This document shows, piece after piece, positions 34,736 through 46,587 of a DNA stretch of 64,000 nucleotides. Made by a program: the position numbers and the translations under genes. Source of the stretch: Bacteroidales bacterium (GTDB lineage Bacteria; Bacteroidota; Bacteroidia; Bacteroidales; UBA932). Below the pieces are notes generated by a model. The model was given only the letters and a program-made list of their open reading frames with translations. It made no database searches and was not told where the DNA came from. The DNA lies in assembly GCA_017616655.1 (NCBI GenBank), contig JAFZXU010000058.1, positions 9,088-73,087 of the forward strand, written 5' to 3'. Each line of letters starts with the position of its first letter. Within the stretch, counting starts at the first letter, position 1.

Positions 34736-36656
34736 GGAAGACCTCCATAGCCTGGTACTCGGCCATTCCGAGAGCGTCGTACTGACGGGCCGTATTGGCG
34801 TTGCGCTCCTCGGCGCGCATCCAGAACTCGCGCGGGTCGTCGCCCGGGAAGGGGACGATGTCCTTCTGCGAGAGATGGCGGTAGATGGCGTGACGCTTCT
34901 CCACCACCTCGCCGGGACTCAGGGGAACGGCCATATCCACGCGGCCCAGCTCCCACTCCATCCAGGCGCCTCGGTAGAGCCATATATTGCAGGAATCCAG
35001 CCACTTCTCCCCCTCTTCGCGCAACTGCTCGATAGCCTCGAGGGCCGCTTCGGTGCAGACGCGGTGGGTGCCGTGAGGATCCGCGAGGTCGCCCGCCATA
35101 TAGATCTGGTCGGGCTTGATCTCCTTCATCAGATCCTTTATGATATCCACATCCTTCTGGGTGCGGGGGAACTTTGCCACGCCGCCCGACTCGTAGAAAG
35201 GCAGATTCAGGAAATGGGTGTTCTTCTTGGCGTGGAGGCCGAAACTGCGGACCGCAGCCTTCGCCTCCGAACGGCGGATGGCCGCCTTGAGGGCCAGCAG
35301 TTTGGCAGGTTCGGGCTCGCCCGGAACCTTGGACTCTATCAGGTGGCGGATCTCTGAGAAATTGTCCCCGTAACCCAGCTCCGCGGCGGCGTCGATATGC
35401 TGAAGCACCACGTCGTCGTGGACTGCAAGGTCACCAGAAGTCTGGTAGGCGATATGCACGTTATGCCCCTGGTGGACCAGACGGATGAGGGTGCCTCCCA
35501 TCGAGATGACATCGTCGTCGGGATGGGGCGAGAAGATCAGCACCGTCTTGGGGAAGGGCTCGGAAGCCACCGGACGGGTCGGCTCGTTGGTATTGGGCTT
35601 GCCTCCCGGCCATCCGGTAATGGTATGCTGGAGGTCGTTGAAAATCTCGATATTGATCTTGTCGAAGGGGCCGTAGAGGTCTATCAGCTCGCCGAGGGAG
35701 TTCTGGAGATAATCCTCGTGGGTAAGCTTCAGGATGGGCTTTCGGACCTCGGTGCAGAGCCATACCACGGCCTTGCGGCGGAACTTGCGGGTCCACTCGC
35801 AGGGGCCGATCTTCCAGGGCGCCACCACGCGGGTGAGAAGCGCGCCGGCCGTTTCGTCCACATAGAGCGAAGCGGCAGGATGGTTCTGGAAGCAGGTTGC
35901 GGGGCAGAGGGTGTCCGCAGGGCCTTCGGCGATGTTATAAACCGCCTTCGCCTTCTTCTCGCCCCACGCCATAAGGATCACGCGGCGGGCGCTCATCATG
36001 GTGTCGATGCCCACAGTAAGGGCCGAAGCGGGAGTGTTGGCTATGTCGCCGTTGAAGTTGTGCGCCTGGCGCTTGCGTGAGGCATAAGGCAGAATAACGG
36101 CGCGGGTGCGGCTTCCGAAGGAGGAACCTGCCTCATTGAAGCCCACCTGCCCGTTTTCGCCGATTCCGATCACCAGCAGGTCCACGTTCCGCGCTGCCAG
36201 GTCGAACTCAGCGCAGTACTGCGAGAGGCGTTCCTGCGGCACGGAACCGTCAGGTATGTGGACATTCTCCTTCAGGACGTCGATCTTGTCCACCAGGGAG
36301 TGATGAAGCCGGTAATTGCGGCTCTGCATCTCGTCGCGGCTGCTGGGATAGTACTCGTCGATGGAGAATATCTCCACGTTACGGAAGGAGACCTTTCCCT
36401 GGGAATAGGCCTCGCTCAGGATCCTGTAGAGCAGAAGCGGTGTCGAACCGGTAGTGAGGCCCAGCTTGAAGAGCGGCTTTTCCTCACCGGGAACGAAGGC
36501 GTTGATTTCGGAGATGACCTCATTCGCCACCTCTTCGCTGGCGTGGTAGGGGTCGGGGAAAAGCTCGGTGTAAACCTTGTCGTATCCGTGAAGGATGTCT
36601 TTGGGAAGTCCGGTCTCTATGAGGCCTCCGTCCTTGGGAAGGGAAAAGTGTTTCAT
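34722..36656 (-). CDS. nagB: glucosamine-6-phosphate deaminase fused to a PIG-L/LmbE-type deacetylase domain (long NagB)
   Basis: N-terminal NagB motifs GLTTGSTPLLLY and FSIDEYY. C-terminal PIG-L motif FSPHPDDDVISMGGTL, plus ADPHGTHRVC. Confidence 0.85.
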   Translation of the reverse strand: MKHFSLPKDGGLIETGLPKDILHGYDKVYTELFPDPYHASEEVANEVISEINAFVPGEEKPLFKLGLTTGSTPLLLYRILSEAYSQGKVSFRNVEIFSIDEYYPSSRDEMQSRNYRLHHSLVDKIDVLKENVHIPDGSVPQERLSQYCAEFDLAARNVDLLVIGIGENGQVGFNEAGSSFGSRTRAVILPYASRKRQAHNFNGDIANTPASALTVGIDTMMSARRVILMAWGEKKAKAVYNIAEGPADTLCPATCFQNHPAASLYVDETAGALLTRVVAPWKIGPCEWTRKFRRKAVVWLCTEVRKPILKLTHEDYLQNSLGELIDLYGPFDKINIEIFNDLQHTITGWPGGKPNTNEPTRPVASEPFPKTVLIFSPHPDDDVISMGGTLIRLVHQGHNVHIAYQTSGDLAVHDDVVLQHIDAAAELGYGDNFSEIRHLIESKVPGEPEPAKLLALKAAIRRSEAKAAVRSFGLHAKKNTHFLNLPFYESGGVAKFPRTQKDVDIIKDLMKEIKPDQIYMAGDLADPHGTHRVCTEAALEAIEQLREEGEKWLDSCNIWLYRGAWMEWELGRVDMAVPLSPGEVVEKRHAIYRHLSQKDIVPFPGDDPREFWMRAEERNANTARQYDALGMAEYQAMEVFLKLC

Positions 36657-37846
36657 TTGCGAATCTTATAGCCGTAGTAAGCGTAGTACATTATCAGGAG
36701 ATAGAAGGGCAGGCAGATCCAGTATGCGTTCTGGCTGCCGAGCCAGTCCTTCATGAAGCCGAAGAGTACGGGAATCAGGGCGCCGCCGCCGATGGAGGCC
36801 ACCAGCAGCGAGGATCCCTTCTTGGTGAACTTGCCGAGATCCACGATGGCGAGGGGCCAGATCGCGGGGTACATCAGCGAGCAGGCGAAGCTCAGCAGCG
36901 CCACGAACCATACCGAAACGGGGCCCGGAGTGAGCACTATTGCCAGCGACATTATCACAGCCAGCCAGGTGCAGATTCGCAGAGCCTTGACCTGCGATAT
37001 GTATTTGGGAATGAAGATGATACCGAGTATGTAGCCGGCCGCCATTCCTATTCCGGGCCAGATGGTGTAGTTCTCGGGGTTGGGCAGGCCGAGATCCTTG
37101 GCATAGTCGAGCACCGTGAGCAGCGCAAGGTTCTCCACTCCCACATAGACGAAGAGCGCAAGGGCGCCCAGTATCAGGTGCGGGAACTGCCAGATGCTCT
37201 TCTTGCCGGCGGCGTAGGGGCAGTCCTCCTCGTTCTCCTCTCCCTCCGCCTTGATCTCCTCGAGCGGAGCGAAGAAGGTAAGGATGCCGAGCAGCACCAC
37301 CACGCCGATTATGATGAAAAGGGGCGCATCCAGGTCGTTGAGTCCAACCTGCTCGATGGGTTTGCGGGTGACTGCGGCGATGAATACCGAAGGGAGCGAG
37401 AGGGCCAGCGAATTGCAGATGCCCATTATGCTGATGCGGCGCGCGGCACTGTCGATAGGGCCGAGAATGGTGACATAGGGGTTGATCGCAGCCTGCAGGA
37501 TGGTATTTGCCGTACCGCTGATGAAGCAGGCGAGCAGATAGAGGGCGAAACTCTCCATCCTTGCCGCTGGGATGAACATCGCGAAGGCCACCGCAAAGAG
37601 GAAGAACGAGAGCGACATGGTCCTCTTGTACCCTATCTTGTTGATTATCGAAGAGGCAGGGAAACTGAAGACCAGGAATGCCACGAAGGTGGCCGCCACC
37701 ACGAGGTAGCTCTGGGCGGAGGTCAGGTTCAGGTTGTTCTCCAGGAAGGGTACGAAATAGCCGTTGATGCCCACCGCGAAGCCCACGGTGAAGAACATCA
37801 TCCCTATGAAGGCGAGGGGAACTATGTATTTCTTATTATCTCCCAT
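36653..37846 (-). CDS. MFS sugar permease of the GluP/FucP/NagP type
   Basis: About 12 TM helices. N-terminus MGDNKKYIVPLAFIGMMFFTVGFAVGINGYFVPFL is typical of glucose/galactose-type MFS transporters. ATGA overlap with nagB. Confidence 0.8.
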   Translation of the reverse strand: MGDNKKYIVPLAFIGMMFFTVGFAVGINGYFVPFLENNLNLTSAQSYLVVAATFVAFLVFSFPASSIINKIGYKRTMSLSFFLFAVAFAMFIPAARMESFALYLLACFISGTANTILQAAINPYVTILGPIDSAARRISIMGICNSLALSLPSVFIAAVTRKPIEQVGLNDLDAPLFIIIGVVVLLGILTFFAPLEEIKAEGEENEEDCPYAAGKKSIWQFPHLILGALALFVYVGVENLALLTVLDYAKDLGLPNPENYTIWPGIGMAAGYILGIIFIPKYISQVKALRICTWLAVIMSLAIVLTPGPVSVWFVALLSFACSLMYPAIWPLAIVDLGKFTKKGSSLLVASIGGGALIPVLFGFMKDWLGSQNAYWICLPFYLLIMYYAYYGYKIRK

Positions 37847-37852
37847 AACTGT

Positions 37853-38701
37853 TTAGCTTTCAAGGTGATACTTGATGAGGCCCTCCATCGGGGCCTTGAG
37901 GATGACGCCCATCTTCATTCCGAATTCCTCGACCACGGGCTGCAGCAGCGGCTTGAAGTAGTAGGCCACGCTTCCAACCGCGTTGAAGGTGTATTTCTGA
38001 TAGTTGGGATAGTGGGTGACGATCAGTTTGAAGAACTGGCGGAATGCGTCGGTGACGAGTTCGGGGAAGTAGGGGTCGAAGTCCAGGTTCTGATGGATGA
38101 ACTTGGCGTACTGTGCGCAGAAGCGGTTGGGGAAGGGCTTGGTATAGATGACATCCAGCAGTTCGTCGTTGTTGCGTCCCAGCTCCTTCCCTACGAGGTC
38201 ATAGACCTTCGGCGGCATGTTGCGGCGGATGTAGTCGGTGATGAGCCTCTTGCCGAGATTGCCGCCGCTGCCCTCGTCGCCGAGGATGAAGCCGCAGGAA
38301 TCCACATTGAGTCCCTCGTTGCAGCCGTCGTAGAGGCAGGAGTTGGCTCCAGTGCCCAGGATGGCGGCGAAACCGGATTCCCGCTGGAGCAGCGCCCGGC
38401 ATGAAGCCAGCGTATCCATCGCGATGAATACGGTCGTCACCTTCGTGAAGACCTTGCGGAGGGTCTCCTCCATGAAGGGATACTGCAGGGGCGTAACGCC
38501 AGCTCCGTAGAAATAGATTTCCCTTACATCGTCTACGGGAAAGCCGCCGGGAAGGTTGGCAAGGATGTCCTCAACTATCTGGGGACCTGTGATATAGTTG
38601 GGGTTGTAACCCTGGCTCTGGAAGGTGATGCGGCGGTCGCCGCCCCTTTCCACGCAAGCCCAGTCGGTCTTCGAAGCCCCGCTGTCAGCTATCAGTATCA
38701 T
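37853..38701 (-). CDS. BadF/BadG/BcrA/BcrD-type N-acetyl-sugar kinase (GlcNAc/MurNAc kinase-like)
   Basis: ATPase motifs LIADSGASKTDW, ILGTGANS, GFILGDEGSG. Confidence 0.8.
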   Translation of the reverse strand: MILIADSGASKTDWACVERGGDRRITFQSQGYNPNYITGPQIVEDILANLPGGFPVDDVREIYFYGAGVTPLQYPFMEETLRKVFTKVTTVFIAMDTLASCRALLQRESGFAAILGTGANSCLYDGCNEGLNVDSCGFILGDEGSGGNLGKRLITDYIRRNMPPKVYDLVGKELGRNNDELLDVIYTKPFPNRFCAQYAKFIHQNLDFDPYFPELVTDAFRQFFKLIVTHYPNYQKYTFNAVGSVAYYFKPLLQPVVEEFGMKMGVILKAPMEGLIKYHLES

Positions 38702-38702: not shown

Positions 38703-39614
38703 TTATTTCTCCTTATTGTCCCAAAGTCCGTGGAGGTCGGGGAAGTCGCCGAGGCCGTAGCGGAAGAGAACCACTCCGACAGCCTCCGATTCGTTGGCGA
38801 ACTCCTGGCAGTCGGCGAGCATCTGCTCGGGGGTCATAGGTATGGGCGTATCGTCATCCGCATCGCCTGCATCCGGACGGTCGCGGTAGGTAGTAGTACC
38901 TGCCCAGACCACTGCGGGCTTGCCCTTCTCTGCGAAATGGTTGGCCACGCGGACTGCCCAGCCGGCGTCATTGTGCTTGTAACCGCCGCTGTAGCGGTAG
39001 ATCATAGGCATAAGGATGTCGAGATACTGACCCATCTGCGCGGGATCCTGGCCGTAGTAGTACTCGCTGTCAGGCTCCGGCATGAGGGCGGCGGAGAGGA
39101 CGACCTTGGGATTGACCTCGCGGACCGCCTCGCTTATCTGGCGGCAGAACTCGGTCACGCAGCCGGTGGCGGTAATCTCCTCCGAAGGATTGTGCTTGTA
39201 AGCAGTGCCGCCGAAGCGTATATAGTCGAGGTGGATGCCGTCAACTCCCCACTTCACATACTGCACGGCGCGGGCGATGACCTCATCGAAAAAATCCTGC
39301 TTGTAGCAGTTGTTCTCGTCGTCAATGGGGTATGCCCACTTTCCGTCCTTTTGGAAAGCCTGGAACCAGATATGGACCTTGCAGCCCTTCTTCTGGGCCT
39401 CCTTGACGAAGGCGAGCGTGGAGTCCACTCCGTGGGCCGTGAAGGCCTTCTCGTGGAGGATTATGTTCTTGATGTCCTTGGAAACCATCTCGTCGATGTT
39501 GACCTCGGTCATATACTTCGACCAGAGCCAGAAGGCGTTGGTGTTGGGCTCTTCTGCCTTCTTGCAGGAGACCAGGGCGAAAAGCGCCAGAGCGGCGATG
39601 AGAAGTCTTTTCAT
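38703..39614 (-). CDS. GHL10/DUF187-like TIM-barrel lipoprotein (putative glycoside hydrolase)
   Basis: Lipobox LFALVSC. GVDGIHLDYIRFGG motif. Paralogue of 45244..46587. Confidence 0.6.
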   Translation of the reverse strand: MKRLLIAALALFALVSCKKAEEPNTNAFWLWSKYMTEVNIDEMVSKDIKNIILHEKAFTAHGVDSTLAFVKEAQKKGCKVHIWFQAFQKDGKWAYPIDDENNCYKQDFFDEVIARAVQYVKWGVDGIHLDYIRFGGTAYKHNPSEEITATGCVTEFCRQISEAVREVNPKVVLSAALMPEPDSEYYYGQDPAQMGQYLDILMPMIYRYSGGYKHNDAGWAVRVANHFAEKGKPAVVWAGTTTYRDRPDAGDADDDTPIPMTPEQMLADCQEFANESEAVGVVLFRYGLGDFPDLHGLWDNKEK

Positions 39615-39625: not shown

Positions 39626-40687
39626 TTAGAATTCAAGTTCGTAGTAGCGCCCGTTGAAGGTTTCCATTCCCTTCCAGGTAGGAGTTCCGAAGGTTGCGCT
39701 GTTGTTCGAAGGATCGCAGATCCACCACTTTCCGTCGACATAGATTTCGGGAATGACGTGGCCAATGACGCCCGAAGTGAAGTAGCACTGGCCGTGCAGG
39801 TAACGGGCGGGGATGCCGGCTGCGCGGCACATGGCGAGAGTCGCGTGGGTCAGGTCGCAGCAGTTGCCGCCCTTAGCCCTGATGGTTCCGAGAGCACCCT
39901 TCTTAGTATTGGAATAGTTCTCCCACTCCCATTCGTCGCGGGCATATGCGAATATTGCCTCTGCCTTCTGGCGTTCGGTTGCCGAAGCGGAGAGATTCTT
40001 AAGAGCGGCAGCAAGCGTGCTCTTGACCAACTCGTCGTCCTTGGGGCAGTTGCGTGTGGCAGCGAGATAGCTGGAAGGCCATGAAGAGACCTCCTCGGGC
40101 CACTTGCCCTCGTTCTTCACGAAATAGTTCATCGTCCTTGCCAGGACCACCATTGCGGCCCGAAGGTTCATCATGTTGTCGTGCTCGGTAACGACCATCA
40201 GCAGTTTGGGCATATATCCGGGGCTGCTCTGGTCGCTTGAGGGGAATGTGACATAATTGGGCAGGCTGCCGTTGTTCCTGGCATAGTCCGCCATACGGCC
40301 GGCCATATATTTGATATGGGCGAAGTCGATGACGTCGGGGTCGTAGGTATTCCAGCGGTACTCGTCACCGAAGGCGGCGGAGAAGAGGTCGATCTCCTCA
40401 TCCTGCCAGGTGTCGGGCTGGGAGACGATCTTGTCTATCAGCAGGCAGGCCGCTATCGTATAACGTCCCTTGTTGTAGGTGATGCCCTCCACATTGACAC
40501 TCGTGGGAAGCGAGCCGGTCTCCTCGAAAACGTCATAGGCATCTGAGATGGCCTGGGCGAAATGGCCGTTGTAACTGTCGAGGGTAAACTTCTCCTCAGG
40601 CTTCATGGGTTTCAGATTCTCACCGCAGCCTACGGCCGTCAACATGAGCGCACAGAGCGCTGAAACTATTAGCATAGTCCTTTTCAT
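39626..40687 (-). CDS. lipoprotein with PMBR-like repeats plus C-terminal transglutaminase-like cysteine protease core
   Basis: Lipobox LTAVGC (start moved to the ATG at 40687). Repeats ...VFEETGSLPTSVNVEGITYNKGRYTIAACLLIDKI... and ...MADYARNNGSLPNYVTF... Cys-His-Asp core KGGNCCDLTHATLAMCRAAGIPARY / IGHVIPEIYVDGKWWICDP. Confidence 0.7.
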   Translation of the reverse strand: MKRTMLIVSALCALMLTAVGCGENLKPMKPEEKFTLDSYNGHFAQAISDAYDVFEETGSLPTSVNVEGITYNKGRYTIAACLLIDKIVSQPDTWQDEEIDLFSAAFGDEYRWNTYDPDVIDFAHIKYMAGRMADYARNNGSLPNYVTFPSSDQSSPGYMPKLLMVVTEHDNMMNLRAAMVVLARTMNYFVKNEGKWPEEVSSWPSSYLAATRNCPKDDELVKSTLAAALKNLSASATERQKAEAIFAYARDEWEWENYSNTKKGALGTIRAKGGNCCDLTHATLAMCRAAGIPARYLHGQCYFTSGVIGHVIPEIYVDGKWWICDPSNNSATFGTPTWKGMETFNGRYYELEF

Positions 40688-40697: not shown

Positions 40698-40737
40698 CGA
40701 AAAACTGGCAACTGCGGGGGCGGTCAGGCCCCCGCAG
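40698..40737 (-). terminator. GC-rich hairpin plus T-run between the giant lipoprotein gene and the next gene (attenuator/partial terminator candidate)
   Basis: 10-bp stem ctgcgggggc (40712..40721) / gcccccgcag (40728..40737). On the minus strand it is followed by ttgccagttttt. Confidence 0.5.
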
Positions 40738-40747
40738 CTAATAATAA

Positions 40748-42262
40748 CTAGTTTATACCGTAGAGATCGAAGCTGAACTGCTGGTCTTTGATGGCGGTAT
40801 ATACATTTTCGTTGACATTGTTGTCAAGGATGTACTTGTAGATGCGCATCAGCACCATCAGTTCGCGCATCGGGGAGATGAGGCCCTCATAGCCGGTGAG
40901 GTTGAGGGTACCGGAGGTGGTGCCGAACTGCTGGAAGTTGCCGACCATGCCGAGAGGGCTGTTGCTGCCCACGGCGACGAAGCTGCGGACCACGTGCCAT
41001 GCACCGACCTTCACCATGAAGTTGACGTCGACGGTCGAAATCGCCTGGCCGTCCTTCTTCACGAGGTCGTCGAACTCATACCAGGGGTTCTTGCCCCACT
41101 TGTTGGCTGCCGAAGGGGAAGGCATCGCACTCGACATCGCCTTGTTGTCCTTGAGGGTATATGCCTTGTTGCGGTCGGTCATGCCGTTGAGGAACTCCTC
41201 GCCCTCCTCGGTAACCATGTTCAGCAGACCGCGGATTGCGATCTCCCAAGCCTGCGATGAGGTATAAGTAGTACCCTTGATATCGAGGGTCCAGGGGGTC
41301 TTGCCGTCGTCGTACTGGTTGTTGCCGTAATCCTTGAAGTCGGAGTTGTTGGTATTGCCGATAGGAATGTAGTGGACGTTGGTCCAGCCGCCCTTCGCAC
41401 TCTTGGAGTTGCGCTCGCCGTCAGCATCGATGTTGCCTACGGTATTCTGCCATACGTCGAGGCCCTTTACGAATTCCGTTGCGAAATCCTTCAGGGAAGG
41501 AGCGCTGACGTCACCGTTCTCGCCATAGAGGAAGAAGTTGAACTGCTGGTCCTTGATGGCGGTGTAGACATTCTCTTCGATGTTGTTGTCGAGCAGATAC
41601 TTGTAGATACGCATCAGCACCATCAGCTCGCGCATCGGGGAGATGAGGCCCTCATAGCCGGTGAGGTTGAGGGTACCGGAGGTGGTGCCGAACTGCTGGA
41701 AGTTGCCGATCATGCCGAGAGGGCTGTTGCTGCCCACGGCGACGAAGCTGCGGACCACGTGCCATGCGCCGACCTTCACCATGAAGTTGACGTCGACCGT
41801 CGAAATCGCCTGACCGTCCTTCTTCACGAGGTCGTCGAACTCATACCAGGGGTTCTTGCCCCACTTGTTGGCTGCGGATGCGGAAGGCATTGCGCTGCCG
41901 AGGCCCTTGTTGTCCTTGAGGGTGTATGCCTTGTTGCGGTCGGTCATGCCGTTGAGGAACTCCTCGCCCTCCTCGGTAACCATGTTCAGCAGACCGCGGA
42001 TTGCAATCTCCCAAGCCTGCGATGAGGTGTACTGCTTGCCGTCGATGGTAAGGGTCCAGGGGGTCTTGCCGTCGTCGTACTGGTTGTTGCCGTAATCCTT
42101 GAAGTCGGAGTTGTTGGTATTGCCGATAGGAATGTAGTGGACATTGGTCCAGCCGCCCTTCACGCTCTGTGAGTTGCGCTCGCCGTCAGCATCGACGTTG
42201 CCTACGGTATTCTTCCAGACATCGAGGCCCTTGACGAATTCCTTTGCGAAATCCTTCAGGGA
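40748..42262 (-). repeat. near-identical tandem duplication, period 765 bp (255 codons), forming the last two modules of the giant gene
   Basis: gcatcagcac at 40846 recurs at 41611. I see only 5 mismatches between 40851..41110 and 41616..41875. There are 19 amino-acid differences over 247 aligned residues. Confidence 0.9.
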
Positions 42263-45202
42263 AGGACCCGTAGCGGGAAGGTCATAGAGAGCCGTGCTGA
42301 TGTCGACATTGCTCGTTGCGCTCACGACATTGGTGGTGATGTTGTTCCTGACCACATAGTCGAACCAGCGGGACATCATAAGGAAGTCGCGCTCGAGGCA
42401 GACATAGCCGTTGTAGGTGGTCAGCACGGGGTCCGATGTACGGGGATAGCCGCAGACATTGGGCCACTCGCCGTTGCTCTTGATATAGTTGAGGCAGCGG
42501 GTGGCGAAGTTCGAAAGGAGGTCGGTCTTTGCCACGGTCTCCTTGAGTCCGTCGCCATACTCGTGCCAGCGTGCAGAAGCTGCATCATAGCTCTTGGGAG
42601 CGGTGACCTTGTCGCTCATCTTGCCGCCGTTCTCGAGGGCCTTGAAGGCGTTGAGGGCGATTTCGTGCATCTGGTACTTGTCATAGGTATTGCCCTTGAC
42701 GGTGATGGTGAAGGAGTCGGGAACGTAGTGTACATTCTCCTTCTTGTAGCTGGTGCCGTTGAAGGTGTATTCCACGTTGCCGGTAGTGGTCTCCCAGACC
42801 TGAGCCGCCCTTGCGAATTCGGTAGCAAATTCCGCAATAGTCGGAGTGTTGTCGACCGGGGCAGCGCCCTGGTTGTAGAGGTCGAAGCTGAACTTCTGGT
42901 TCTTGATGGCGTCATAGACATTCTCGTTGATGTTGTTGTCGAGGATGTACTTGTAAATACGCATCATGACGAGGAGCTCACGCATAGGGGAAATCAATCC
43001 GTCGTAGCCGTCAAGGTTCAAAGTGCTTGAAGAGGTGCCGAACTGCTGGAAGTTGCCGACATTGCCGAGCGGGCTGTTGCTGCCCACTGCGATGAAGGAA
43101 CGGACCACGTGCCATGCGCCCACCTTGATCATGAAGTTGATGTCGACAGTCTCGATCTTCTGGCCGTTGTAGGTGACAAGGTCGGAGTTTGCTCCCTCAT
43201 ACCAGGGATGGCCGCCCCACTTGTTGTTGGAGGAAGGATTAGGTATGGCCGCGGTGTTGAATGCCTTGTTGTTGCCAAGGGTGTAGGCCTTGTTGCGGTC
43301 GGTCATGCCGTCGAGGAATGCCTCGCCTTCGGTGGTGACCAGATTCATCAGACCGCGGATAGCGATTTCCCATGCCTGGTTCGAGGTGATTTCCTGACCG
43401 TTGACATTGAGTTTCCAGGGAGTGTACTGGGGATCGTACTGGTTGCCTGCATGACCCTGGTAAGCACTGCCGATATCGCCGACAGGGATGAAATGTACAT
43501 TCTGCCATGCGGTGCCCTTCTCGATAAGGTGCTCACCTTCAGACTCGACAGTACCTACTGTTGCCTCCCAGACATCGAGGCCCTTTACGAATTCGGTTGC
43601 GAAATCCTTGAGGGTTCCGTTGAGTGCGACGTATGCGCCCTGGTTGACAGCGATCTCAAGGCCATCGGTGATGTTGCCGCCCTTGAGGACCACCTTGCCG
43701 CTGCGCTCGGCGCCGGTATTGGCGTCGGCGGAGATGGCGATGGAAACATCGCCGGCTGCACCGGAAGCGGGATCGACATGGATCCATGCGTCGGATGCGG
43801 TTGCGGTCCAGTTTTTCTTGGCCGAGAAGGTAGCGTTGACAGCAGTTCCGTCGAACTTGAGGTCGACCTTCTTGGTCTTGAGTTCGATGTCGGGCATCTC
43901 CACGCCGTAGAGGTCGGTGTCGAACTTGACATCCTTGACTGCGTCATAGACGTTCTCGGTGATGTCGTTGTCGAGCAGATACTTGTAGAAGCGGGCTGCA
44001 ATCAGCCACATACGCATCGAGCTGACGAAGCCGGATACGCCCTCCTCGACGAAGCCTTCGTCGGGATTGGTGCTGAAGTACTGGTAGTTACCGATCTTGC
44101 CGAGGGCGACCTGGCGGGTAAGGAACCAGGAAGCGCAGCGTGCGATAAGGTACGGGCTGAATTCCGTGAGGTTGATTGCCGGACCGTCGTTGGTGCTCTC
44201 ATACCAGGGATACTGTCCCCAGATGTCCACATCGGTAACTGCGGGGATGGGCTCCTTGAGGGTCTTGCCGTTACCCATCGTATGCTCGAACGGGTTGCGG
44301 TTCTGCTGCATCTTGGCGGAACCTTCTACGGTGATCAGGTCCATGATACCGCGGAGTGCGATACCCCAGGTCTGTGCAGAAGTGTAGGTGGTGCCGTCGA
44401 TGGTGACGGTGAAGTAAGGCTGGTACTTCGCATCGTACTGGTCAACGCCGTCGGCATAAGCGCCGCCAGACCAGGGAATGGGAACGAAGTGTACATCCTT
44501 CCATGCCGAATTGTTGTCGGTGTAGTGCGAACCGTCGGCGGAGACGGTACCCACGGTGTTCTGCCAGATGTCGAGAATCTGGACGAACTGCTGTGCGAAG
44601 CCCTTGAGGGTTGCGGCTGCGGAGAGATACTCGGTGTCCACCTTTGCAGGGAGGGAACCTGCATCCTTGTAAGCCGCCAGTGCACGCAGCACGGTAACGG
44701 TGAGGCGGTTCGTGGAGAACGCCAGGGCGTCGTCATTGCCCCTGGTTACGAGAGTCTGGTTGGGGACCTGGCCCTTCGCCTTCATGGCGTCGAGGAACTT
44801 CTGTGCGAGGTTTACGAGATCCTCGGTACCCTCCTTGATCGCAGGGCCGCCCTTCATGGCGATTTCAGCTTTGTCGTAGCTGTCACGTTCCGGGTGGTCT
44901 GCAGCCTTGTAGCCGTAGACCTTGATGTCAGACTTGTCGCCGGCAGCAATGCCGGTGAGCAGCTTTGCGATGGCATACTGGTACTGGGGAAGGGTGAGGT
45001 TGTTCGAACCTACCTGAAGGGTTTCAGGGATGGTCGTATTCTCCTCCCAGGCTGCAAATGCCGCAGCTGCCGCATCGAGCAGGTCAGCCTGCTTGACTGT
45101 TGCGACTACTTTTACGTCGCCTTCCTCTTCCGGATCCACGCAGGAGTTGAAGAGGGACAATGCCGCTACTGCGACAGTCATTAACAGAAAGAATTTCTTC
45201 AT
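40748..45202 (-). CDS. 1484-aa modular surface lipoprotein: N-terminal PMBR-like domain, five ~190-255-aa repeat modules, one BACON domain
   Basis: Lipobox LSLFNSC. Modules at about aa 198-435, 530-777, 788-975, 981-1235 and 1236-1484, each starting (T/S)LKDFA.EFV..LDVW..TVG. BACON-like segment at aa ~446-525. No catalytic motif recognised. Confidence 0.8.
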   Translation of the reverse strand: MKKFFLLMTVAVAALSLFNSCVDPEEEGDVKVVATVKQADLLDAAAAAFAAWEENTTIPETLQVGSNNLTLPQYQYAIAKLLTGIAAGDKSDIKVYGYKAADHPERDSYDKAEIAMKGGPAIKEGTEDLVNLAQKFLDAMKAKGQVPNQTLVTRGNDDALAFSTNRLTVTVLRALAAYKDAGSLPAKVDTEYLSAAATLKGFAQQFVQILDIWQNTVGTVSADGSHYTDNNSAWKDVHFVPIPWSGGAYADGVDQYDAKYQPYFTVTIDGTTYTSAQTWGIALRGIMDLITVEGSAKMQQNRNPFEHTMGNGKTLKEPIPAVTDVDIWGQYPWYESTNDGPAINLTEFSPYLIARCASWFLTRQVALGKIGNYQYFSTNPDEGFVEEGVSGFVSSMRMWLIAARFYKYLLDNDITENVYDAVKDVKFDTDLYGVEMPDIELKTKKVDLKFDGTAVNATFSAKKNWTATASDAWIHVDPASGAAGDVSIAISADANTGAERSGKVVLKGGNITDGLEIAVNQGAYVALNGTLKDFATEFVKGLDVWEATVGTVESEGEHLIEKGTAWQNVHFIPVGDIGSAYQGHAGNQYDPQYTPWKLNVNGQEITSNQAWEIAIRGLMNLVTTEGEAFLDGMTDRNKAYTLGNNKAFNTAAIPNPSSNNKWGGHPWYEGANSDLVTYNGQKIETVDINFMIKVGAWHVVRSFIAVGSNSPLGNVGNFQQFGTSSSTLNLDGYDGLISPMRELLVMMRIYKYILDNNINENVYDAIKNQKFSFDLYNQGAAPVDNTPTIAEFATEFARAAQVWETTTGNVEYTFNGTSYKKENVHYVPDSFTITVKGNTYDKYQMHEIALNAFKALENGGKMSDKVTAPKSYDAASARWHEYGDGLKETVAKTDLLSNFATRCLNYIKSNGEWPNVCGYPRTSDPVLTTYNGYVCLERDFLMMSRWFDYVVRNNITTNVVSATSNVDISTALYDLPATGPSLKDFAKEFVKGLDVWKNTVGNVDADGERNSQSVKGGWTNVHYIPIGNTNNSDFKDYGNNQYDDGKTPWTLTIDGKQYTSSQAWEIAIRGLLNMVTEEGEEFLNGMTDRNKAYTLKDNKGLGSAMPSASAANKWGKNPWYEFDDLVKKDGQAISTVDVNFMVKVGAWHVVRSFVAVGSNSPLGMIGNFQQFGTTSGTLNLTGYEGLISPMRELMVLMRIYKYLLDNNIEENVYTAIKDQQFNFFLYGENGDVSAPSLKDFATEFVKGLDVWQNTVGNIDADGERNSKSAKGGWTNVHYIPIGNTNNSDFKDYGNNQYDDGKTPWTLDIKGTTYTSSQAWEIAIRGLLNMVTEEGEEFLNGMTDRNKAYTLKDNKAMSSAMPSPSAANKWGKNPWYEFDDLVKKDGQAISTVDVNFMVKVGAWHVVRSFVAVGSNSPLGMVGNFQQFGTTSGTLNLTGYEGLISPMRELMVLMRIYKYILDNNVNENVYTAIKDQQFSFDLYGIN
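43628..43867 (-). other. BACON-like domain within the giant lipoprotein
   Basis: VDLKFDGTAVNATFSAKKNWTATASDAWIHVDPASGAAGDVSIAISADANTGAERSGKVVLKGGN fits the W..-..WI...P..G.....I.....N....R pattern of BACON domains. Confidence 0.55.
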
Positions 45203-45243: not shown

Positions 45244-46587
45244 TTATTTCAAATCGTTCACATCGGGGAATTTTCCGAGGCCGCAGCGGAAAAGCACGAG
45301 GCCGTCGGCCTTTGAGTCCATGAAGACGTCGATGTCCTTCCTGAGCTGCTCGGCCGTCATCCCCTTGACGCCGCCGGAATCGTTGCCCGTATAGGTCGTG
45401 ATGCCGGCCCATACCTGGGCGCCGCCGGAGTTGTCGCAGAACCAGTTGACGATCGACTTGCAGCCGGAATCCGACCAGTTATAGGAGTAACGGTAGCACA
45501 TCGGCATCAGGACGTGGATGTATTTTCCCATCAGGACGGGACTCTGTCCGTAATATTCCGTGGAATTGCGCTCCGGCATCAGGGCGGCGCTTGTCACCAA
45601 CCCTTCGTCGAAACTGTCGGCAATCTCACGGATCTCCTGGCAGCATCGGTTTACGGCGCCGACAGCGTTGACCGTAGCCGAAGGGTTGTGCTTGTAGGCG
45701 GTGCCGCCGAAGCGGATATAATCCAGATGCAGCCCCTTCACGCCGAACTCCTCGAGATAGGTCTTCGCGTGTTTGCGGATATCTGCGAATACCTCCTCCT
45801 TATAGCAGGCCCTGGCATCGTCCACCGGATTGATCCAGTCGCCTTTGTAGAAACACTGCATCCAGCAGTGTACCGCAAGACCCAGTTCCTCGCATTTCTC
45901 GATGAAAGGAACCGTATTCTTTATATTATAGGACTCGAATGCCGCGTAGTTCAGGAGGATATGGTGATATCCGAGACGCTTGAACTCCTTCAGCTGCGCA
46001 GCATCGTTTTCCATCAGTCCAGAAATGTGGGAACTCCAGGTCCAGATGGCGGTATGGGGAGTCGCATCTATATCGAAGACCTCGTTGACTCTGCCCTTGC
46101 TGGGATAGGTCAGCCTGCGCCAGGCTCCGAGGCCGTCGGGAATCCTCTGGTAACTTCCCCTGCGGGTAAGGGTGTCGGGGAAATCCTTCGAGCGGTCGAA
46201 GATGTCCACCGTCGCCGTTCCGATTCCAAGGCGCAGTTCGAACTGCGAGTCGGAGGCGATGCCGGTGGCGAGGGATTCGTCCTCCGTGGAAGCCACTATC
46301 CTTTCACCGGAAGCTAATTTTGCACCCTGTGGCGCGCTCCAGACGCACTTGCCGTCAAAATACTGGTCGGTCAGGTAGAGTCCTACGCCATTCAATGCAA
46401 TCTCGGCGGAGGACGTATTCGTTATCTCCACCCAGCTTACGGCGTCGGACTTCTCATCGTGGGCGGAAATCTCATTGATGACAAGCCCTTTGAGATGGTC
46501 CACGGAAGGTTCCTTCCCGCAGGTGGCAGCCATGAGCATCACGCAGGCGGAAAACAGCGCATAAGCGATATGTCTCCTTATTCTCAT
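45244..46587 (-). CDS. lipoprotein: lamin-tail-domain (LTD)-like N-terminus plus GHL10/DUF187-like TIM barrel
   Basis: Lipobox LMAATC. LVINEISAHDEKSDAVSWVEITNTSSAEIALNGVGLYLTD (LTD-like). VKGLHLDYIRFGGTAYKHNP... is colinear with 38703..39614. Confidence 0.6.
   Translation of the reverse strand: MRIRRHIAYALFSACVMLMAATCGKEPSVDHLKGLVINEISAHDEKSDAVSWVEITNTSSAEIALNGVGLYLTDQYFDGKCVWSAPQGAKLASGERIVASTEDESLATGIASDSQFELRLGIGTATVDIFDRSKDFPDTLTRRGSYQRIPDGLGAWRRLTYPSKGRVNEVFDIDATPHTAIWTWSSHISGLMENDAAQLKEFKRLGYHHILLNYAAFESYNIKNTVPFIEKCEELGLAVHCWMQCFYKGDWINPVDDARACYKEEVFADIRKHAKTYLEEFGVKGLHLDYIRFGGTAYKHNPSATVNAVGAVNRCCQEIREIADSFDEGLVTSAALMPERNSTEYYGQSPVLMGKYIHVLMPMCYRYSYNWSDSGCKSIVNWFCDNSGGAQVWAGITTYTGNDSGGVKGMTAEQLRKDIDVFMDSKADGLVLFRCGLGKFPDVNDLK

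What the first reader, a model, noticed from the sequence alone, without database searches (positions are those of the whole stretch)
39626..40687. Pseudomurein-endoisopeptidase-like architecture (PMBR-like repeats plus a transglutaminase Cys-His-Asp core) in a Bacteroidota PUL
Seen: a lipoprotein whose N-half has two LP-containing repeats (VFEETGSLPTSVNVEGITYNKGRYTIAACLLIDKI; MADYARNNGSLPNYVTF). Its C-half has a transglutaminase-like core with a candidate triad: GGNCCDLTHATLAMCRAAGIPARY, IGHVIPEIYV and WWICDP.
Established: the archaeal/prophage PeiW and PeiP pseudomurein endoisopeptidases combine PMBR wall-binding repeats with a transglutaminase-fold cysteine protease.
Inference: in an operon with murQ, this protein is a candidate peptidoglycan stem-peptide or cross-link endopeptidase. 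It would free glycan strands or muropeptides at the cell surface or in the periplasm.
Basis: partly seen in the sequence, partly recalled or inferred. Interest (0 to 1): 0.65.

Follow-up and report, generated by a model that had tools for sequence, protein, structure and literature searches.

The report
Methanogen-type wall peptidase in Bacteroidales PUL
A rumen/gut Bacteroidales sugar-harvesting gene cluster contains a lipoprotein built like the enzymes that methanogen viruses use to cut archaeal cell walls, which suggests, but does not prove, that these bacteria digest methanogen (pseudomurein) walls rather than only bacterial peptidoglycan.

Summary
Window 39626-40687 (minus strand) encodes a 353-aa lipoprotein. 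Its C-terminal half is a transglutaminase-fold domain (Pfam 67.7 bits) whose Cys276-His310-Asp325 triad is invariant in 79 homologues. Its N-terminal half holds three PMBR-type repeats: one clear, two degenerate. The AF2 model (pLDDT 92) has full-length PeiP as its best match in both PDB and BFVD.

The catalytic half is 43% identical to a PMBR protein of Methanobacterium virus Drs3. In an unbiased 1.8-billion-protein search, the nearest relatives outside the bacterial groups are mostly PMBR proteins, named as Methanobacteriales where a name exists. In Methanobacterium this protein and its downstream neighbour, a DUF4015/Cwp19-like glycan hydrolase, occur fused in one polypeptide.

The gene sits in a fixed block found in ~69 gut or rumen Bacteroidales species: SusC/D, ceramidase-like, 2x GH20, MurQ-like, LTD-DUF4015, a giant BACON lipoprotein with the same PMBR-like module, this gene, DUF4015, kinase, MFS. 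No classical murein hydrolase is in the block.

Best reading: it is the peptide-cutting enzyme of a cell-wall-degrading PUL. I put pseudomurein at about 0.5 and murein at about 0.3. The MurQ-like gene is the main evidence for murein. No function has been tested.

The parts
39626..40687 (-). Target gene: 353-aa lipoprotein made of a PMBR-like triple repeat plus a transglutaminase-fold cysteine peptidase domain
   Evidence: ORF; Pfam; AF2 pLDDT 92.4; 183 homologues
40625..40687 (-). Signal peptide with lipobox AVG-C (Cys21)
   Evidence: Translation MKRTMLIVSALCALMLTAVGC; a Cys-containing N-terminus is conserved in the family
40421..40573 (-). PMBR-like repeat 1 with its following helix (residues 39-89); degenerate
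   Evidence: Helix 39-57, strand 63-66, helix 73-89; hhalign probability 32%, E 4.8e-4; not significant with the repeat HMM
40226..40333 (-). PMBR repeat 2 (residues 119-154); the only repeat clear from sequence alone
   Evidence: PF09373 24.3 bits against a gathering score of 24.9; 28 bits with my own HMM; hhalign 96.8%
40085..40177 (-). PMBR-like repeat 3 (residues 171-201)
   Evidence: Strand-helix-strand in the model; hhalign 78%, E 1.8e-5
39629..40069 (-). Catalytic domain (residues 207-353), homologous to the C-terminus of Drs3 ORF35 and of Methanobacterium PMBR proteins
   Evidence: 43% identity, E 2e-33 to Drs3; Transglut_core covers residues 234-326; family HMM against archaeal proteins scores 130-175 bits
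39860..39862 (-). Codon of the catalytic Cys276
   Evidence: Invariant; aligns with the Cys of GVCRD in 3isr; codon checked
39758..39760 (-). Codon of His310
   Evidence: Invariant; codon checked
39713..39715 (-). Codon of Asp325
   Evidence: Invariant; codon checked
38703..39614 (-). Downstream partner: 303-aa lipoprotein, a DUF4015/GH18-like TIM barrel and putative wall-glycan hydrolase
   Evidence: Pfam; AF2 pLDDT 93.8; top Foldseek hits are the C. difficile wall protein Cwp19 and the spore cortex-lytic enzyme SleL; fused to PMBR and TGase domains in Methanobacterium; 27-44% identity to those archaeal domains
45244..46587 (-). LTD domain plus a second DUF4015-like TIM barrel (447 aa), a paralogue of the 303-aa enzyme
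   Evidence: 41% identity, E 2e-68 to the 303-aa protein; LTD hit
40748..45202 (-). Upstream neighbour: 1484-aa BACON lipoprotein whose N-terminus (residues 40-190) carries the same PMBR-like triple-repeat module; candidate surface binding protein
   Evidence: BACON; hhalign against the target's N-terminal module gives 98.3%, E 1.3e-14 over 139 columns; internal 765-nt duplications
46584..47429 (-). MurQ-like SIS-domain etherase (281 aa)
   Evidence: NCBIfam PRK05441 284 bits (cutoff 168) but TIGR00274 232 bits, below its 302 cutoff; 195 bits to Yersinia MurQ 4s12 with both acidic motifs present
47435..51060 (-). Two GH20 beta-N-acetylhexosaminidases (612 and 596 aa)
   Evidence: Pfam
51062..52408 (-). 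448-aa neutral-ceramidase-like protein, a candidate amidase
   Evidence: PF04734 34 bits; conserved in the block
52412..57499 (-). SusD-like (660 aa) and SusC-like (1032 aa) outer-membrane import pair
   Evidence: Pfam
36653..38701 (-). MurK/K1058-family sugar kinase (282 aa) and NagP-like MFS transporter (397 aa)
   Evidence: PDB hits 1zxo, 1zbs, 8oqk, 8oqw; NCBIfam NagP and gluP hits
34722..36656 (-). NagB-like deaminase / PIG-L deacetylase fusion (644 aa)
40709..40740 (-). 13-bp GC-rich hairpin followed by a T run, lying between the BACON gene and the target gene
   Evidence: sequence

Best explanation
The gene encodes an exported lipoprotein cysteine (iso)peptidase of the 'PMBR repeats plus transglutaminase fold' type. 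It is the peptide-cutting component of a conserved Bacteroidales PUL that dismantles peptide-cross-linked amino-sugar cell-wall sacculi.

Proposed mechanism (inferred):
1. The three PMBR-type repeats dock the enzyme onto wall glycan strands. The same module sits at the N-terminus of the neighbouring 1484-aa BACON lipoprotein, which probably captures wall fragments at the cell surface.
2. Cys276, activated by His310 and Asp325, attacks an amide or isopeptide bond in the peptide bridges and opens the mesh.
3. Two DUF4015/Cwp19-like TIM-barrel enzymes cut the glycan. These are fused to the PMBR-TGase unit in methanogens.
4. SusC/D import the fragments, and two GH20 enzymes remove terminal HexNAc.
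5. An MFS transporter, a MurK-family kinase, a MurQ-like lyase and NagB/PIG-L feed the sugars into glycolysis.

I think the wall attacked is most likely the pseudomurein of gut and rumen methanogens (about 0.5), and less likely bacterial murein (about 0.3). If it is pseudomurein, the MurQ-like enzyme could release GlcNAc-6-P from a 3-O-substituted GlcNAc-6-P. The pseudomurein backbone is 1->3 linked, so a reducing-end GlcNAc carrying N-acetyltalosaminuronic acid on O3 is chemically analogous to MurNAc, which is 3-O-lactyl-GlcNAc.

Shown here: the architecture, the triad, the fold, the synteny, the relatives and the fusion. Inferred: hydrolysis, the bond cut, the substrate, the cellular location and the MurQ idea.
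For: Architecture and triad.

Fold. PeiP is the top hit in PDB (8z4f_A, E 3.9e-10, 336 columns) and in BFVD (Q77WJ4, E 1e-9). The PeiW catalytic domain 8jx4_A aligns with TMt 0.66 and rmsd 3.5.

Relatives:
- Drs3 ORF35 is 43% identical, E 2e-33. It carries PMBR x2, Transglut_core and a near-threshold Peptidase_C71 hit.
- A GTDB scan found 69 Bacteroidales loci and 11 Methanobacteriales loci, and no other groups.
- An unbiased HMMER search gave 1582 hits. Of 64 representatives ranked below the closest lipoprotein-type hits, 64 have Transglut_core, 49 PMBR, 17 C71 and 11 DUF4015. The few source names available are mostly Methanobacterium 'pseudomurein-binding repeat-containing protein'.

Rosetta-stone fusion. 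Methanobacterium proteins of 871, 735 and 609 aa have the order DUF4015, then PMBR repeats in two of the three, then TGase. The Bacteroidales DUF4015 proteins are 27-44% identical to those domains, E down to 1e-37.

The partner is a wall-glycan enzyme by fold: its best matches are the C. difficile wall protein Cwp19 and the spore cortex-lytic enzyme SleL.

Synteny is fixed across loci down to 35% identity. The PMBR-like module is shared with the BACON lipoprotein.

About half of the loci also carry a glutamate symporter, an M20+C1 peptidase fusion and an AAT/C45-like amidase, which is consistent with use of the wall peptides.

Pointers towards pseudomurein:
- PMB domains bind pseudomurein but not intact murein, and need at least three repeats (PMC3466432, PMC2989375).
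- No GH23/25/73, amidase_2/3 or NlpC/P60 was found among the gene products of the block that were scanned.
- All 62 linked kinases have D-S-[C/L] and M-D where MurK has S133-P134-L135 and T94-D95 (PMC10465942).
- Every host is a gut or rumen Bacteroidales.
Against: - The block contains a MurQ-like gene whose nearest solved relatives are genuine MurNAc-6-P etherases. It scores 195 bits to 4s12 and above the cutoff of NCBIfam PRK05441. A MurK-family kinase and an MFS transporter lie nearby. This is the known murTKQ route for MurNAc, a sugar absent from pseudomurein.
- The idea that MurQ acts on a 3-O-glycosylated GlcNAc-6-P has no precedent.
- Only one of the three repeats is a clear PMBR. The window protein falls 0.6 bits short of the Pfam threshold.
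- The function of the archaeal relatives is itself unknown. The literature proposes cross-linking transglutaminases or adhesins (PMC10117817, PMC11915815).
- The direction of gene transfer was not established. GHL-type TIM barrels are mainly bacterial (own knowledge), so the archaeal and Bacteroidales sequences could share bacterial murein-hydrolase ancestry.
- The GTDB scan used motif patterns and is biased towards close relatives.
- No biochemical data exist for any member of the family.
Confidence: 0.5

Rival explanations
1. The protein is a murein (bacterial peptidoglycan) endopeptidase or MurNAc-peptide amidase in a peptidoglycan-scavenging PUL. It cuts stem peptides or cross-links so that glycan strands can be degraded to GlcNAc and MurNAc. 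These sugars then enter through the MFS transporter, are phosphorylated, and are cleaved by MurQ.
For: - A MurQ-like gene with both catalytic acidic motifs, a MurK/K1058-family kinase, a NagP-like MFS transporter and NagB/PIG-L lie in the same operon.
- The partner enzyme's best structural matches are described as bacterial cell-wall enzymes: the C. difficile wall protein Cwp19 and the spore cortex-lytic enzyme SleL.
- One homologue is named YddW-like. E. coli YddW/DigH cleaves denuded murein glycans (own knowledge).
- PMB domains were reported to bind lysozyme-treated bacterial cells, possibly through GlcNAc (PMC3466432).
- Murein is abundant in the gut. An APH-family kinase lies next to the operon; whether it is related to the anomeric MurNAc kinase AmgK was not shown, and it has no NCBIfam hit.
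Against: - The nearest non-bacterial relatives of this protein, and the matches of both GH-like neighbours, are PMBR proteins of pseudomurein archaea.
- No classical murein hydrolase, and no enzyme specific for D-amino-acid peptides, was found among the gene products of the block that were scanned.
- The kinase lacks the SPL and T94 features that make room for the lactyl group in MurK.
- The block is confined to gut and rumen Bacteroidales, although murein is everywhere.
- PMB domains do not bind intact murein (PMC3466432).
Confidence: 0.3
2. The protein acts on some other amide linkage in a HexNAc-rich glycoconjugate. One example is a PNGase-like glycan-Asn amidase acting on host or microbial glycoproteins. 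Another is an amidase that detaches the peptide from the uronic-acid or lactyl carboxyl group rather than cutting a cross-link.
For: - PNGases share the transglutaminase fold and appear among the Foldseek hits (2f4m and 3esw, E ~2e-3).
- The block holds two GH20 enzymes and GH18-like barrels.
- No dedicated sugar-peptide amidase has been identified in the block apart from the ceramidase-like and AAT-like candidates.
Against: - The PNGase matches are far weaker than those to PeiP and 3isr.
- The MurQ-like gene and the archaeal wall-protein relatives are not explained by a glycoprotein substrate.
- PeiW and PeiP, the only characterised enzymes with this architecture, cut the epsilon-Ala-Lys bond (PMC4592898).
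Confidence: 0.1
3. The protein is not a hydrolase in vivo. It would be either a binding or adhesin-type lipoprotein that tethers the bacterium to methanogens or wall debris, or a true transglutaminase that forms cross-links, as has been proposed for its archaeal relatives.
For: - Methanogen TGase-domain proteins are annotated as adhesins or as candidate cross-linking enzymes (PMC10117817, PMC11915815).
- The N-terminal module is also present on the apparently non-catalytic BACON lipoprotein.
Against: - The triad and surrounding motifs are invariant over about 35-100% identity, which argues for catalysis.
- The gene is embedded in a catabolic operon next to glycosidases.
- A lytic virus carries a homologue in a PMBR-plus-peptidase layout like that of the lysins PeiW and PeiP, next to its tail genes.
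Confidence: 0.07

Closest known systems
PeiP / PeiW pseudomurein endoisopeptidases of Methanothermobacter phages psiM2 / psiM100 (MEROPS C71, Pfam PF12386 plus PF09373)
   Same: - Same order of parts: N-terminal PMBR wall-binding repeats, then a C-terminal Cys-His-Asp peptidase of the transglutaminase/papain-like fold.
- PeiP is the best structural match over the full length in both PDB and BFVD.
- About 300-350 aa in length.
   Different: - No PF12386 hit, and BLASTP against PeiP is not significant. The catalytic domain belongs to PF01841.
- Three repeats, two of them degenerate, instead of four clear ones.
- Bacterial lipoprotein signal.
- Encoded in a SusC/D PUL, not in a virus lysis module.
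Methanobacterium virus Drs3 ORF35, annotated 'pseudomurein-binding repeat protein' (AXN53416.1)
   Same: - Closest named relative: 43% identity over residues 207-353, including GNCCDL, IGHV, DPSNN and the C-terminal LPF.
- Three PMBR repeats followed by Transglut_core.
- Similar size (300 aa).
   Different: - Viral, with no signal peptide or lipobox.
- Its repeats are clear PMBRs (62 bits).
- It has a near-threshold C71 hit (20.7 bits).
- Uncharacterised experimentally, as far as I could find.
Methanobacterium chromosomal DUF4015-PMBR-Transglut_core multidomain surface proteins (for example L090:8051-10666, 871 aa)
   Same: - The C-terminal ~300 aa align with the whole mature Bacteroidales protein (family HMM 155 bits).
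- The N-terminal GH-like domain is homologous to the Bacteroidales gene immediately downstream.
   Different: - One fused polypeptide, against two adjacent genes in Bacteroidales.
- Archaeal signal peptide and low-complexity linkers; 3-6 clear PMBRs.
- Function unknown. Cross-linking, recycling and adhesin roles have been proposed (PMC10117817, PMC11915815).
3ISR, Cytophaga hutchinsonii transglutaminase-like putative cysteine protease
   Same: Only significant PDB sequence match (E 8.8e-9, residues 257-327). The catalytic core is shared.
   Different: No PMBR module, different N-terminal domain, function unknown, not in this PUL context.
Tannerella forsythia MurT-MurK-MurQ MurNAc utilisation genes
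   Same: The block has an MFS transporter, a kinase of the same Bacteroidetes BadF-type family (170-189 bits to MurK and K1058) and a MurQ-like etherase.
   Different: - The genes are dispersed within a SusC/D PUL.
- The kinase is closer to K1058, 1zxo and 1zbs than to MurK. It replaces the MurK specificity residues SPL/T94 by DS[C/L]/M.
- The MurQ-like protein scores below the TIGR00274 equivalog cutoff.
Bacterial modular autolysins that pair a peptidase with a glycosidase (for example CHAP or NlpC/P60 plus glucosaminidase or lysozyme); also Cwp19 and DigH/YddW as GHL-type murein glycan cleavers
   Same: Same logic: a wall-binding repeat module, a Cys peptidase and a glycan-cleaving TIM barrel working on one sacculus. 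The partner enzyme's best structural match is Cwp19.
   Different: Different peptidase fold family, a different binding module (PMBR rather than LysM, SH3b or CWB2), and a nutrient-acquisition context rather than autolysis.

Membership tests
Transglutaminase-like cysteine peptidase superfamily (Pfam PF01841 Transglut_core) | HMM match above the gathering score | tested here: met
   67.7 bits against 23, residues 234-326
Transglutaminase-like cysteine peptidase superfamily (Pfam PF01841 Transglut_core) | Cys-His-Asp catalytic triad in the canonical order and motifs | tested here: met
   C276, H310 and D325 are invariant in 79 + 1 + 64 sequences. The Cys aligns with the GVC of 3isr.
Transglutaminase-like cysteine peptidase superfamily (Pfam PF01841 Transglut_core) | Papain/transglutaminase alpha+beta fold | tested here: met
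   AF2 pLDDT 92.4. Foldseek hits include PeiP, 3isr, LapG, TgpA and PNGase.
PMBR pseudomurein-binding repeat (Pfam PF09373) | HMM match above the gathering score | tested here: inconclusive
   The window protein scores 24.3 bits against a gathering score of 24.9, one repeat. Many orthologues have a precomputed PF09373 hit. My own repeat HMM gives 28 bits.
PMBR pseudomurein-binding repeat (Pfam PF09373) | At least three tandem repeats (needed for binding according to PMC2989375) | tested here: inconclusive
   Profile-profile comparison finds three non-overlapping matches at 96.8%, 78% and 32% probability. The model shows three helix-strand units. Two of the repeats are not significant from sequence alone.
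PMBR pseudomurein-binding repeat (Pfam PF09373) | Binds pseudomurein sacculi | not testable with these tools
   Needs a binding assay with the purified module.
Peptidase family C71, pseudomurein endoisopeptidase Pei (Pfam PF12386) | HMM match to Peptidase_C71 | tested here: not met
   No PF12386 hit at E <= 0.01. BLASTP against PeiP is not significant. Relatives reach the threshold only marginally: Drs3 20.7 bits, Mb871 22.0 bits, and 17 of 64 representatives.
Peptidase family C71, pseudomurein endoisopeptidase Pei (Pfam PF12386) | N-terminal PMBR domain plus C-terminal C-H-D peptidase architecture and overall fold | tested here: met
   Full-length PeiP is the top Foldseek hit in PDB and BFVD.
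Peptidase family C71, pseudomurein endoisopeptidase Pei (Pfam PF12386) | Cleaves the epsilon-Ala-Lys isopeptide bond of pseudomurein | not testable with these tools
   Needs an enzyme assay (sacculi, or synthetic peptides as in PMC4592898).
Bacteroidota polysaccharide utilisation locus (PUL) | Adjacent, co-oriented SusC-like TonB-dependent transporter and SusD-like lipoprotein with linked glycan-active enzymes | tested here: met
   SusC at 54401-57499, SusD at 52412-54394, 2x GH20 and 2x DUF4015-like, all on the minus strand. The block is conserved in ~69 species.
MurNAc catabolic module (MurT/MurK/MurQ) | MurQ etherase: family HMM above cutoff and catalytic acidic residues | tested here: inconclusive
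   PRK05441 subfamily 284 bits (cutoff 168), but the TIGR00274 equivalog scores 232 bits, below its 302 cutoff. The LEVP and EAEDD motifs align with SECP and GAEDD of 4s12. The identification of these motifs as the catalytic ones is from my own knowledge.
MurNAc catabolic module (MurT/MurK/MurQ) | MurK kinase specificity residues T94 and S133-P134-L135 that make room for the lactyl ether (PMC10465942) | tested here: not met
   The window kinase and all 62 PUL-linked orthologues have M-D and D-S-[C/L]. MurK, 1zxo and 1zbs have SPL.

The most novel reading that the evidence does not exclude
This is the peptidase of a 'pseudomurein utilisation locus'. Gut and rumen Bacteroidales would have acquired a wall-binding module, a cysteine isopeptidase and a glycan hydrolase from pseudomurein-containing methanogens or their viruses. 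They would have wired these into a SusC/D PUL to break down and feed on methanogen cell walls. The MurK-like kinase and MurQ-like lyase would be repurposed to cleave the 1->3-linked GlcNAc-talosaminuronic acid unit by phosphorylation and beta-elimination. This would be the first bacterial pseudomurein-degrading system.
Probability: 0.45. Interest if true: 0.92.

Novelty: new variant of a known kind. Interest (0 to 1): 0.75.

Why it matters
The only pseudomurein hydrolases I found described are methanogen (pro)virus enzymes (PeiW, PeiP, PeiR). [quoted passage not shown] My searches found no paper describing a bacterial route for its turnover.

A conserved, widespread Bacteroidales PUL built around methanogen-type wall enzymes would mean that gut bacteria recycle, and possibly attack, methanogen walls. 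That bears on carbon flow and on bacteria-archaea interactions in the rumen and human gut. It would also offer a new source of enzymes that weaken methanogens, an aim already pursued with PeiR for methane mitigation (PMC6189367).

If the substrate turns out to be murein instead, the locus would still define a peptidoglycan PUL that lacks all the classical murein hydrolases I looked for, and a new bacterial use of the PMBR-transglutaminase architecture. In either case the family has several hundred members, all annotated as hypothetical, and gives a defined, testable enzyme.

Tried and rejected
- Direct BLASTP of the target against PeiP was not significant. Homology to C71 shows only through Drs3 as an intermediate, through profiles, and through structure.
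- An HMM built only from the 7-8 PeiP/PeiW repeats was too narrow and gave a score of 1.3 bits on the target. It had to be iterated on archaeal proteins.
- NCBIfam gave no name for the target, the BACON protein, the DUF4015 proteins, the LTD protein or the APH kinase.
- PDB sequence searches for the DUF4015 and ceramidase-like proteins gave only marginal hits.
- The homologue search with the DUF4015 protein was saturated by orthologues, so it could not show the outgroup.
- The IMG/VR scan found only one further viral relative, so 'common viral lysin' is not supported.
- Literature searches for a peptidoglycan or pseudomurein PUL containing such a protein found nothing.
- The NJ tree could not be rooted because PeiP and PeiW fell out of the catalytic-domain cut, and the bootstrap step failed. 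It shows only that the Bacteroidales family is monophyletic, with other bacterial lipoproteins (P0249, P0260) as its sisters. The direction of transfer is therefore not established.
- Tandem Repeats Finder found nothing in the BACON gene. The 765-nt duplications showed up with the repeat finder.
- Ideas rejected: a recent horizontally acquired island (GC content is uniform at ~0.57); a PNGase-like role (weak structural matches, and it does not explain the MurQ-like gene); a prophage lysin (the flanks are housekeeping genes and the gene sits inside a PUL).
Full report
**1. What is at the coordinates**

Window 39626-40687 on the minus strand is an ATG-initiated ORF of 353 codons. Its product begins MKRTMLIVSALCALMLTAVGC, a signal peptide ending in a lipobox with Cys21. 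Eleven nucleotides downstream lies the next gene. Sixty nucleotides upstream lies the stop codon of a 1484-codon gene. All of these genes are on the same strand.

Pfam gives Transglut_core (PF01841) at 67.7 bits for residues 234-326. It gives one PMBR (PF09373) at 24.3 bits for residues 120-148, which is 0.6 bits below the gathering score.

**2. The catalytic half**

The codons were verified.

The triad is invariant in an alignment of 79 homologues spanning 45-100% identity. It is also invariant in the Drs3 virus protein and in 64 more distant relatives.

The only PDB sequence match is the Cytophaga hutchinsonii transglutaminase-like putative protease 3isr (E 8.8e-9). There the query's GNCCD aligns with GVCRD.

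**3. The repeat half**

I built an HMM by iteration from 237 PMBR repeats of 54 archaeal and viral proteins. It finds repeat 2 (residues 119-154) at 28 bits. It places repeats 1 and 3 at the expected positions, but with negative scores.

Profile-profile comparison of that repeat family with the N-terminal part of the 79-sequence alignment gives three non-overlapping matches:
- residues ~114-160: 96.8% probability, E 2.7e-10;
- residues ~171-207: 78%, E 1.8e-5;
- residues ~43-81: 32%, E 4.8e-4.

The AF2 model (79-sequence alignment, pLDDT 92.4, pTM 0.87) shows helix-strand units at all three positions.

The protein therefore has one clear and two degenerate PMBR-type repeats. Published work on MTH719 reports that at least three repeats are needed for binding to pseudomurein (PMC2989375).

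**4. Fold comparison**

Foldseek against PDB puts full-length PeiP first (8z4f_A, E 3.9e-10, 336 aligned columns). The TM-score is low (0.31-0.35) with a large rmsd of 16 Å. Next comes 3isr. The isolated PeiW catalytic domain 8jx4_A aligns with TMt 0.66 and rmsd 3.5. Against BFVD the top hit is again PeiP, Q77WJ4. The architectural claim is confirmed.

**5. Family membership**

The protein is not a member of C71, the PeiW/PeiP family. There is no PF12386 hit, and BLASTP against PeiP is not significant.

It belongs to a different lineage within the same fold. Its closest named member is ORF35 of the lytic Methanobacterium virus Drs3, annotated 'pseudomurein-binding repeat protein'. The two are 43% identical over residues 207-353 (E 2e-33). 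The shared features include GNCCDL, IGHV, DPSNN and the C-terminal LPF. Drs3 ORF35 has clear PMBRs (62 bits), Transglut_core and a near-threshold C71 hit. It links the two lineages, since it matches PeiP at E 1e-7.

**6. Who else has it**

A word-indexed search returned 183 unnamed homologues of 330-370 aa from Bacteroidales metagenomes.

A motif-seeded scan of one genome per GTDB species gave 80 loci:
- 69 are in rumen, gut or faecal Bacteroidales MAGs. The hosts include goat, yak, buffalo, deer, reindeer, horse, chicken and Hadza humans. The taxa include Cryptobacteroides, Muribaculaceae and Alistipes-type genomes. A few of the bins carry Firmicutes-type names in their record titles.
- 11 are in Methanobacteriales (Methanobacterium, Methanosphaera).
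- No other groups appeared.

That scan is biased by its seed motifs, so I also ran HMMER against 1.84 billion representatives. It gave 1582 hits at E < 1e-3. After about two dozen mostly short, lipoprotein-type hits, the list consists of long multidomain proteins that match at their extreme C-terminus.

I scanned 64 of these representatives with Pfam:
- 64 have Transglut_core;
- 49 have clear PMBRs (best E 1.3e-109);
- 17 match Peptidase_C71;
- 11 have DUF4015.

Where a source gives a name, it is usually a Methanobacterium 'pseudomurein-binding repeat-containing' or 'transglutaminase domain-containing' protein.

A few further bacterial relatives exist. These are other Bacteroidota lipoproteins and one dockerin-bearing protein from a Clostridia MAG.

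**7. Context**

In the window, the minus-strand block reads in this order:

| Position | Product |
|---|---|
| 54401-57499 | SusC |
| 52412-54394 | SusD |
| 51062-52408 | 448-aa neutral-ceramidase-like protein |
| 49270-51060 | GH20 |
| 47435-49273 | GH20 |
| 46584-47429 | MurQ-like SIS protein |
| 45244-46587 | 447-aa LTD protein |
| 40748-45202 | 1484-aa BACON lipoprotein |
| 39626-40687 | target |
| 38703-39614 | 303-aa DUF4015/GH18-like lipoprotein |
| 37853-38701 | 282-aa kinase |
| 36653-37846 | MFS transporter |
| 34722-36656 | NagB/PIG-L fusion |

A tblastn of these proteins against the 80 loci shows the same block around the target in nearly every Bacteroidales locus long enough to judge. 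This holds even where the target is only 35-50% identical.

About half of the loci add three genes after the MFS transporter: an AAT/C45-like protein, a Na+/glutamate symporter, and an M20+C1 peptidase fusion.

The rest of the window is ordinary chromosome (UvrD, RsmF, FtsK, an SLT-LysM transglycosylase, AckA, MatE). GC content is uniform at about 0.57.

**8. The partners**

*Two paralogous glycan enzymes.* The C-terminal 270 residues of the LTD protein are 41% identical to the 303-aa DUF4015 protein (E 2e-68). The block therefore holds two paralogous TIM-barrel enzymes. An AF2 model of the 303-aa protein (pLDDT 93.8) matches two wall-associated bacterial proteins best: the C. difficile wall protein Cwp19 (5oq3, E 4e-11, TMq 0.61-0.64) and the spore cortex-lytic enzyme SleL. 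GH18 enzymes follow. From my own knowledge, Cwp19 is a murein lytic transglycosylase and SleL acts on cortex peptidoglycan.

*Fusion in methanogens.* In the Methanobacteriales loci, the hit to the target is adjacent to, or in the same ORF as, a hit to these DUF4015 proteins. Pfam shows single Methanobacterium polypeptides of 871 and 735 aa with the order DUF4015/GH18-like, then 3-5 PMBR repeats, then Transglut_core. A third polypeptide of 609 aa has DUF4015 and Transglut_core. The Bacteroidales DUF4015 proteins are 27-44% identical to those archaeal domains, with E down to 1e-37. The two adjacent Bacteroidales genes are thus a split version of one archaeal wall protein. This Rosetta-stone relationship argues that they act on the same substrate.

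*Shared binding module.* The N-terminal module of the target, with the signal peptide removed, is homologous to residues 40-190 of the 1484-aa BACON lipoprotein family (hhalign 98.3%, E 1.3e-14, 139 columns). The same module is therefore used on the enzyme and on a probable surface binding protein.

**9. Which wall?**

*For murein.*
- The SIS protein's closest solved relatives are true MurNAc-6-P etherases. It scores 195 bits to Yersinia MurQ, and its LEVP and EAEDD motifs align with SECP and GAEDD.
- It passes the NCBIfam MurQ subfamily cutoff, although not the equivalog cutoff.
- The kinase belongs to the Bacteroidetes family that contains T. forsythia MurK.
- An MFS transporter is adjacent.

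*For pseudomurein.*
- This protein's nearest relatives outside the bacterial groups are mostly PMBR proteins, named as Methanobacteriales where a name exists. Both GH-like enzymes match domains of those same proteins. The distant relatives of the BACON lipoprotein were not examined.
- PMB domains bind pseudomurein and not intact murein or chitin (PMC3466432).
- The block lacks every classical murein enzyme I looked for.
- The kinase is closer to K1058, 1zxo and 1zbs than to MurK. The natural substrate of K1058 is stated to be unknown. In all 62 PUL-linked copies the kinase has D-S-[C/L] and M-D, where MurK has the lactyl-accommodating S133-P134-L135 and T94-D95 (PMC10465942).
- The block is confined to gut and rumen Bacteroidales, habitats where pseudomurein methanogens live.

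*A chemical argument that could reconcile the two sets of evidence.* MurNAc is 3-O-lactyl-GlcNAc, and the pseudomurein backbone is 1->3 linked. A reducing-end GlcNAc substituted on O3 by N-acetyltalosaminuronic acid could therefore, after 6-phosphorylation, be a substrate for MurQ-type beta-elimination. This is my inference and has no precedent.

*My weights.* Pseudomurein about 0.5, murein about 0.3, another amide substrate or a non-hydrolytic role about 0.2.

**10. Mechanism proposed**

1. The lipoprotein is exported. Which face of the outer membrane it occupies cannot be decided from the sequence.
2. It docks on wall fragments through its three repeats.
3. It uses Cys276/His310/Asp325 to cut an isopeptide or peptide bond of the bridges. 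By analogy with PeiW and PeiP this would be the epsilon-Ala-Lys bond (PMC4592898).
4. The mesh then opens for the DUF4015 enzymes, the GH20s and SusC/D uptake.

What is shown here: architecture, triad, fold, synteny, relatives and fusion. What is inferred: hydrolysis, the bond cut, the substrate and the location.

The archaeal relatives themselves are uncharacterised. They have been proposed as pseudomurein cross-linking or recycling transglutaminases, or as adhesins (PMC10117817, PMC11915815). In a catabolic operon next to glycosidases, and with a homologue in a lytic virus, hydrolysis is the more likely direction.

**11. Novelty**

The fold, the repeats and their combination are known from PeiW and PeiP. 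New here are three things:
- a large bacterial family with this architecture, every member annotated as hypothetical;
- its fixed place in a SusC/D PUL;
- its link to methanogen wall proteins.

I found no paper describing such a locus. A 2012 paper notes that there were then no experimental reports of PMB domains in bacteria (PMC3466432).

I rate the finding a new variant of a known kind. If the substrate is pseudomurein, the system as a whole would be categorically new.

Noticed in passing
window 40709-40740 (minus strand): A strong terminator-like hairpin (13-bp stem, 9 GC pairs, followed by a T run) lies in the 60-nt gap between the BACON lipoprotein gene and the target gene. It could be an internal attenuator or an mRNA-stabilising element that sets different expression levels within the PUL.
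   Followed up: partly
window 40748-45202 (minus strand): The 1484-aa BACON lipoprotein gene contains a 765-nt (255-aa) tandem duplication at 88-92% nucleotide identity and a third copy at 73-79%. This points to recent repeat expansion. Orthologues range from about 1200 to 1480 aa.
   Followed up: partly
window 37853-38701 (minus strand); loci L011-L079: The PUL kinase belongs to the MurK/K1058 family. In all 62 orthologues it has D-S-[C/L] and M-D in place of MurK's lactyl-pocket residues S133-P134-L135 and T94-D95. This defines a distinct subtype whose substrate is unknown.
   Followed up: partly
L090:3389-5596, 6354-7364, 8051-10666 (Methanobacterium sp. ACI-7 chromosome): Three tandem paralogues carry a C-terminal Transglut_core domain. 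Two have DUF4015 plus PMBR domains. The third has a Lys/Tyr-rich low-complexity linker instead. They lie next to a 7TM histidine kinase. Similar KYKW-rich linkers occur in L089:8612-10441.
   Followed up: partly
P0261 (643 aa, MBQ2661479.1, Clostridia bacterium MAG): A homologue of the whole mature protein (33% identity) carries an N-terminal sequence that looks like a type I dockerin. One member of the scanned set of 64 has a Dockerin_1 Pfam hit. The enzyme type may therefore also be displayed on a cellulosome in rumen Firmicutes.
   Followed up: no
L006:13987-19670 and about 30 other Bacteroidales loci: About half of the PULs carry, after the MFS gene, an AAT/C45-like 528-aa protein, a Na+/glutamate symporter, and a 913-aa fusion of an M20 peptidase with a C1_2 (PepC-like) aminopeptidase. 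This is consistent with catabolism of Glu-containing wall peptides. These genes are absent from the window's version of the PUL.
   Followed up: partly
window 51062-52408 (minus strand): A 448-aa protein shows only a weak neutral-ceramidase N-terminal match (34 bits) and is conserved next to SusD in the block. It is a candidate for the amidase that detaches peptide from the sugar acid. Its function is unknown.
   Followed up: no
window 33494-34735 (plus strand): An APH-family phosphotransferase (413 aa) is divergently oriented at the end of the PUL and is conserved in several loci at 40-85% identity. It has no NCBIfam name. It might be an AmgK-like anomeric amino-sugar kinase, but that was not verified.
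   Followed up: no
window 27672-29336 (minus strand): A 554-aa protein has sigma-70 regions 2 and 4 only at its C-terminus (residues 398-546). The unassigned N-terminal ~400 aa is unusually long for an ECF-type sigma factor.
   Followed up: no
window 31214-32937 (minus strand): A tyrosine recombinase (XerC/D-like, 319 aa) and a DeoR-family regulator (254 aa) lie just beyond the PUL. The DeoR gene recurs next to the block in some loci (L044, L049, L053, L054) and may be its regulator.
   Followed up: no
window 21768-23606 (minus strand): A 612-aa ORF has no Pfam match at E <= 1e-4.
   Followed up: no
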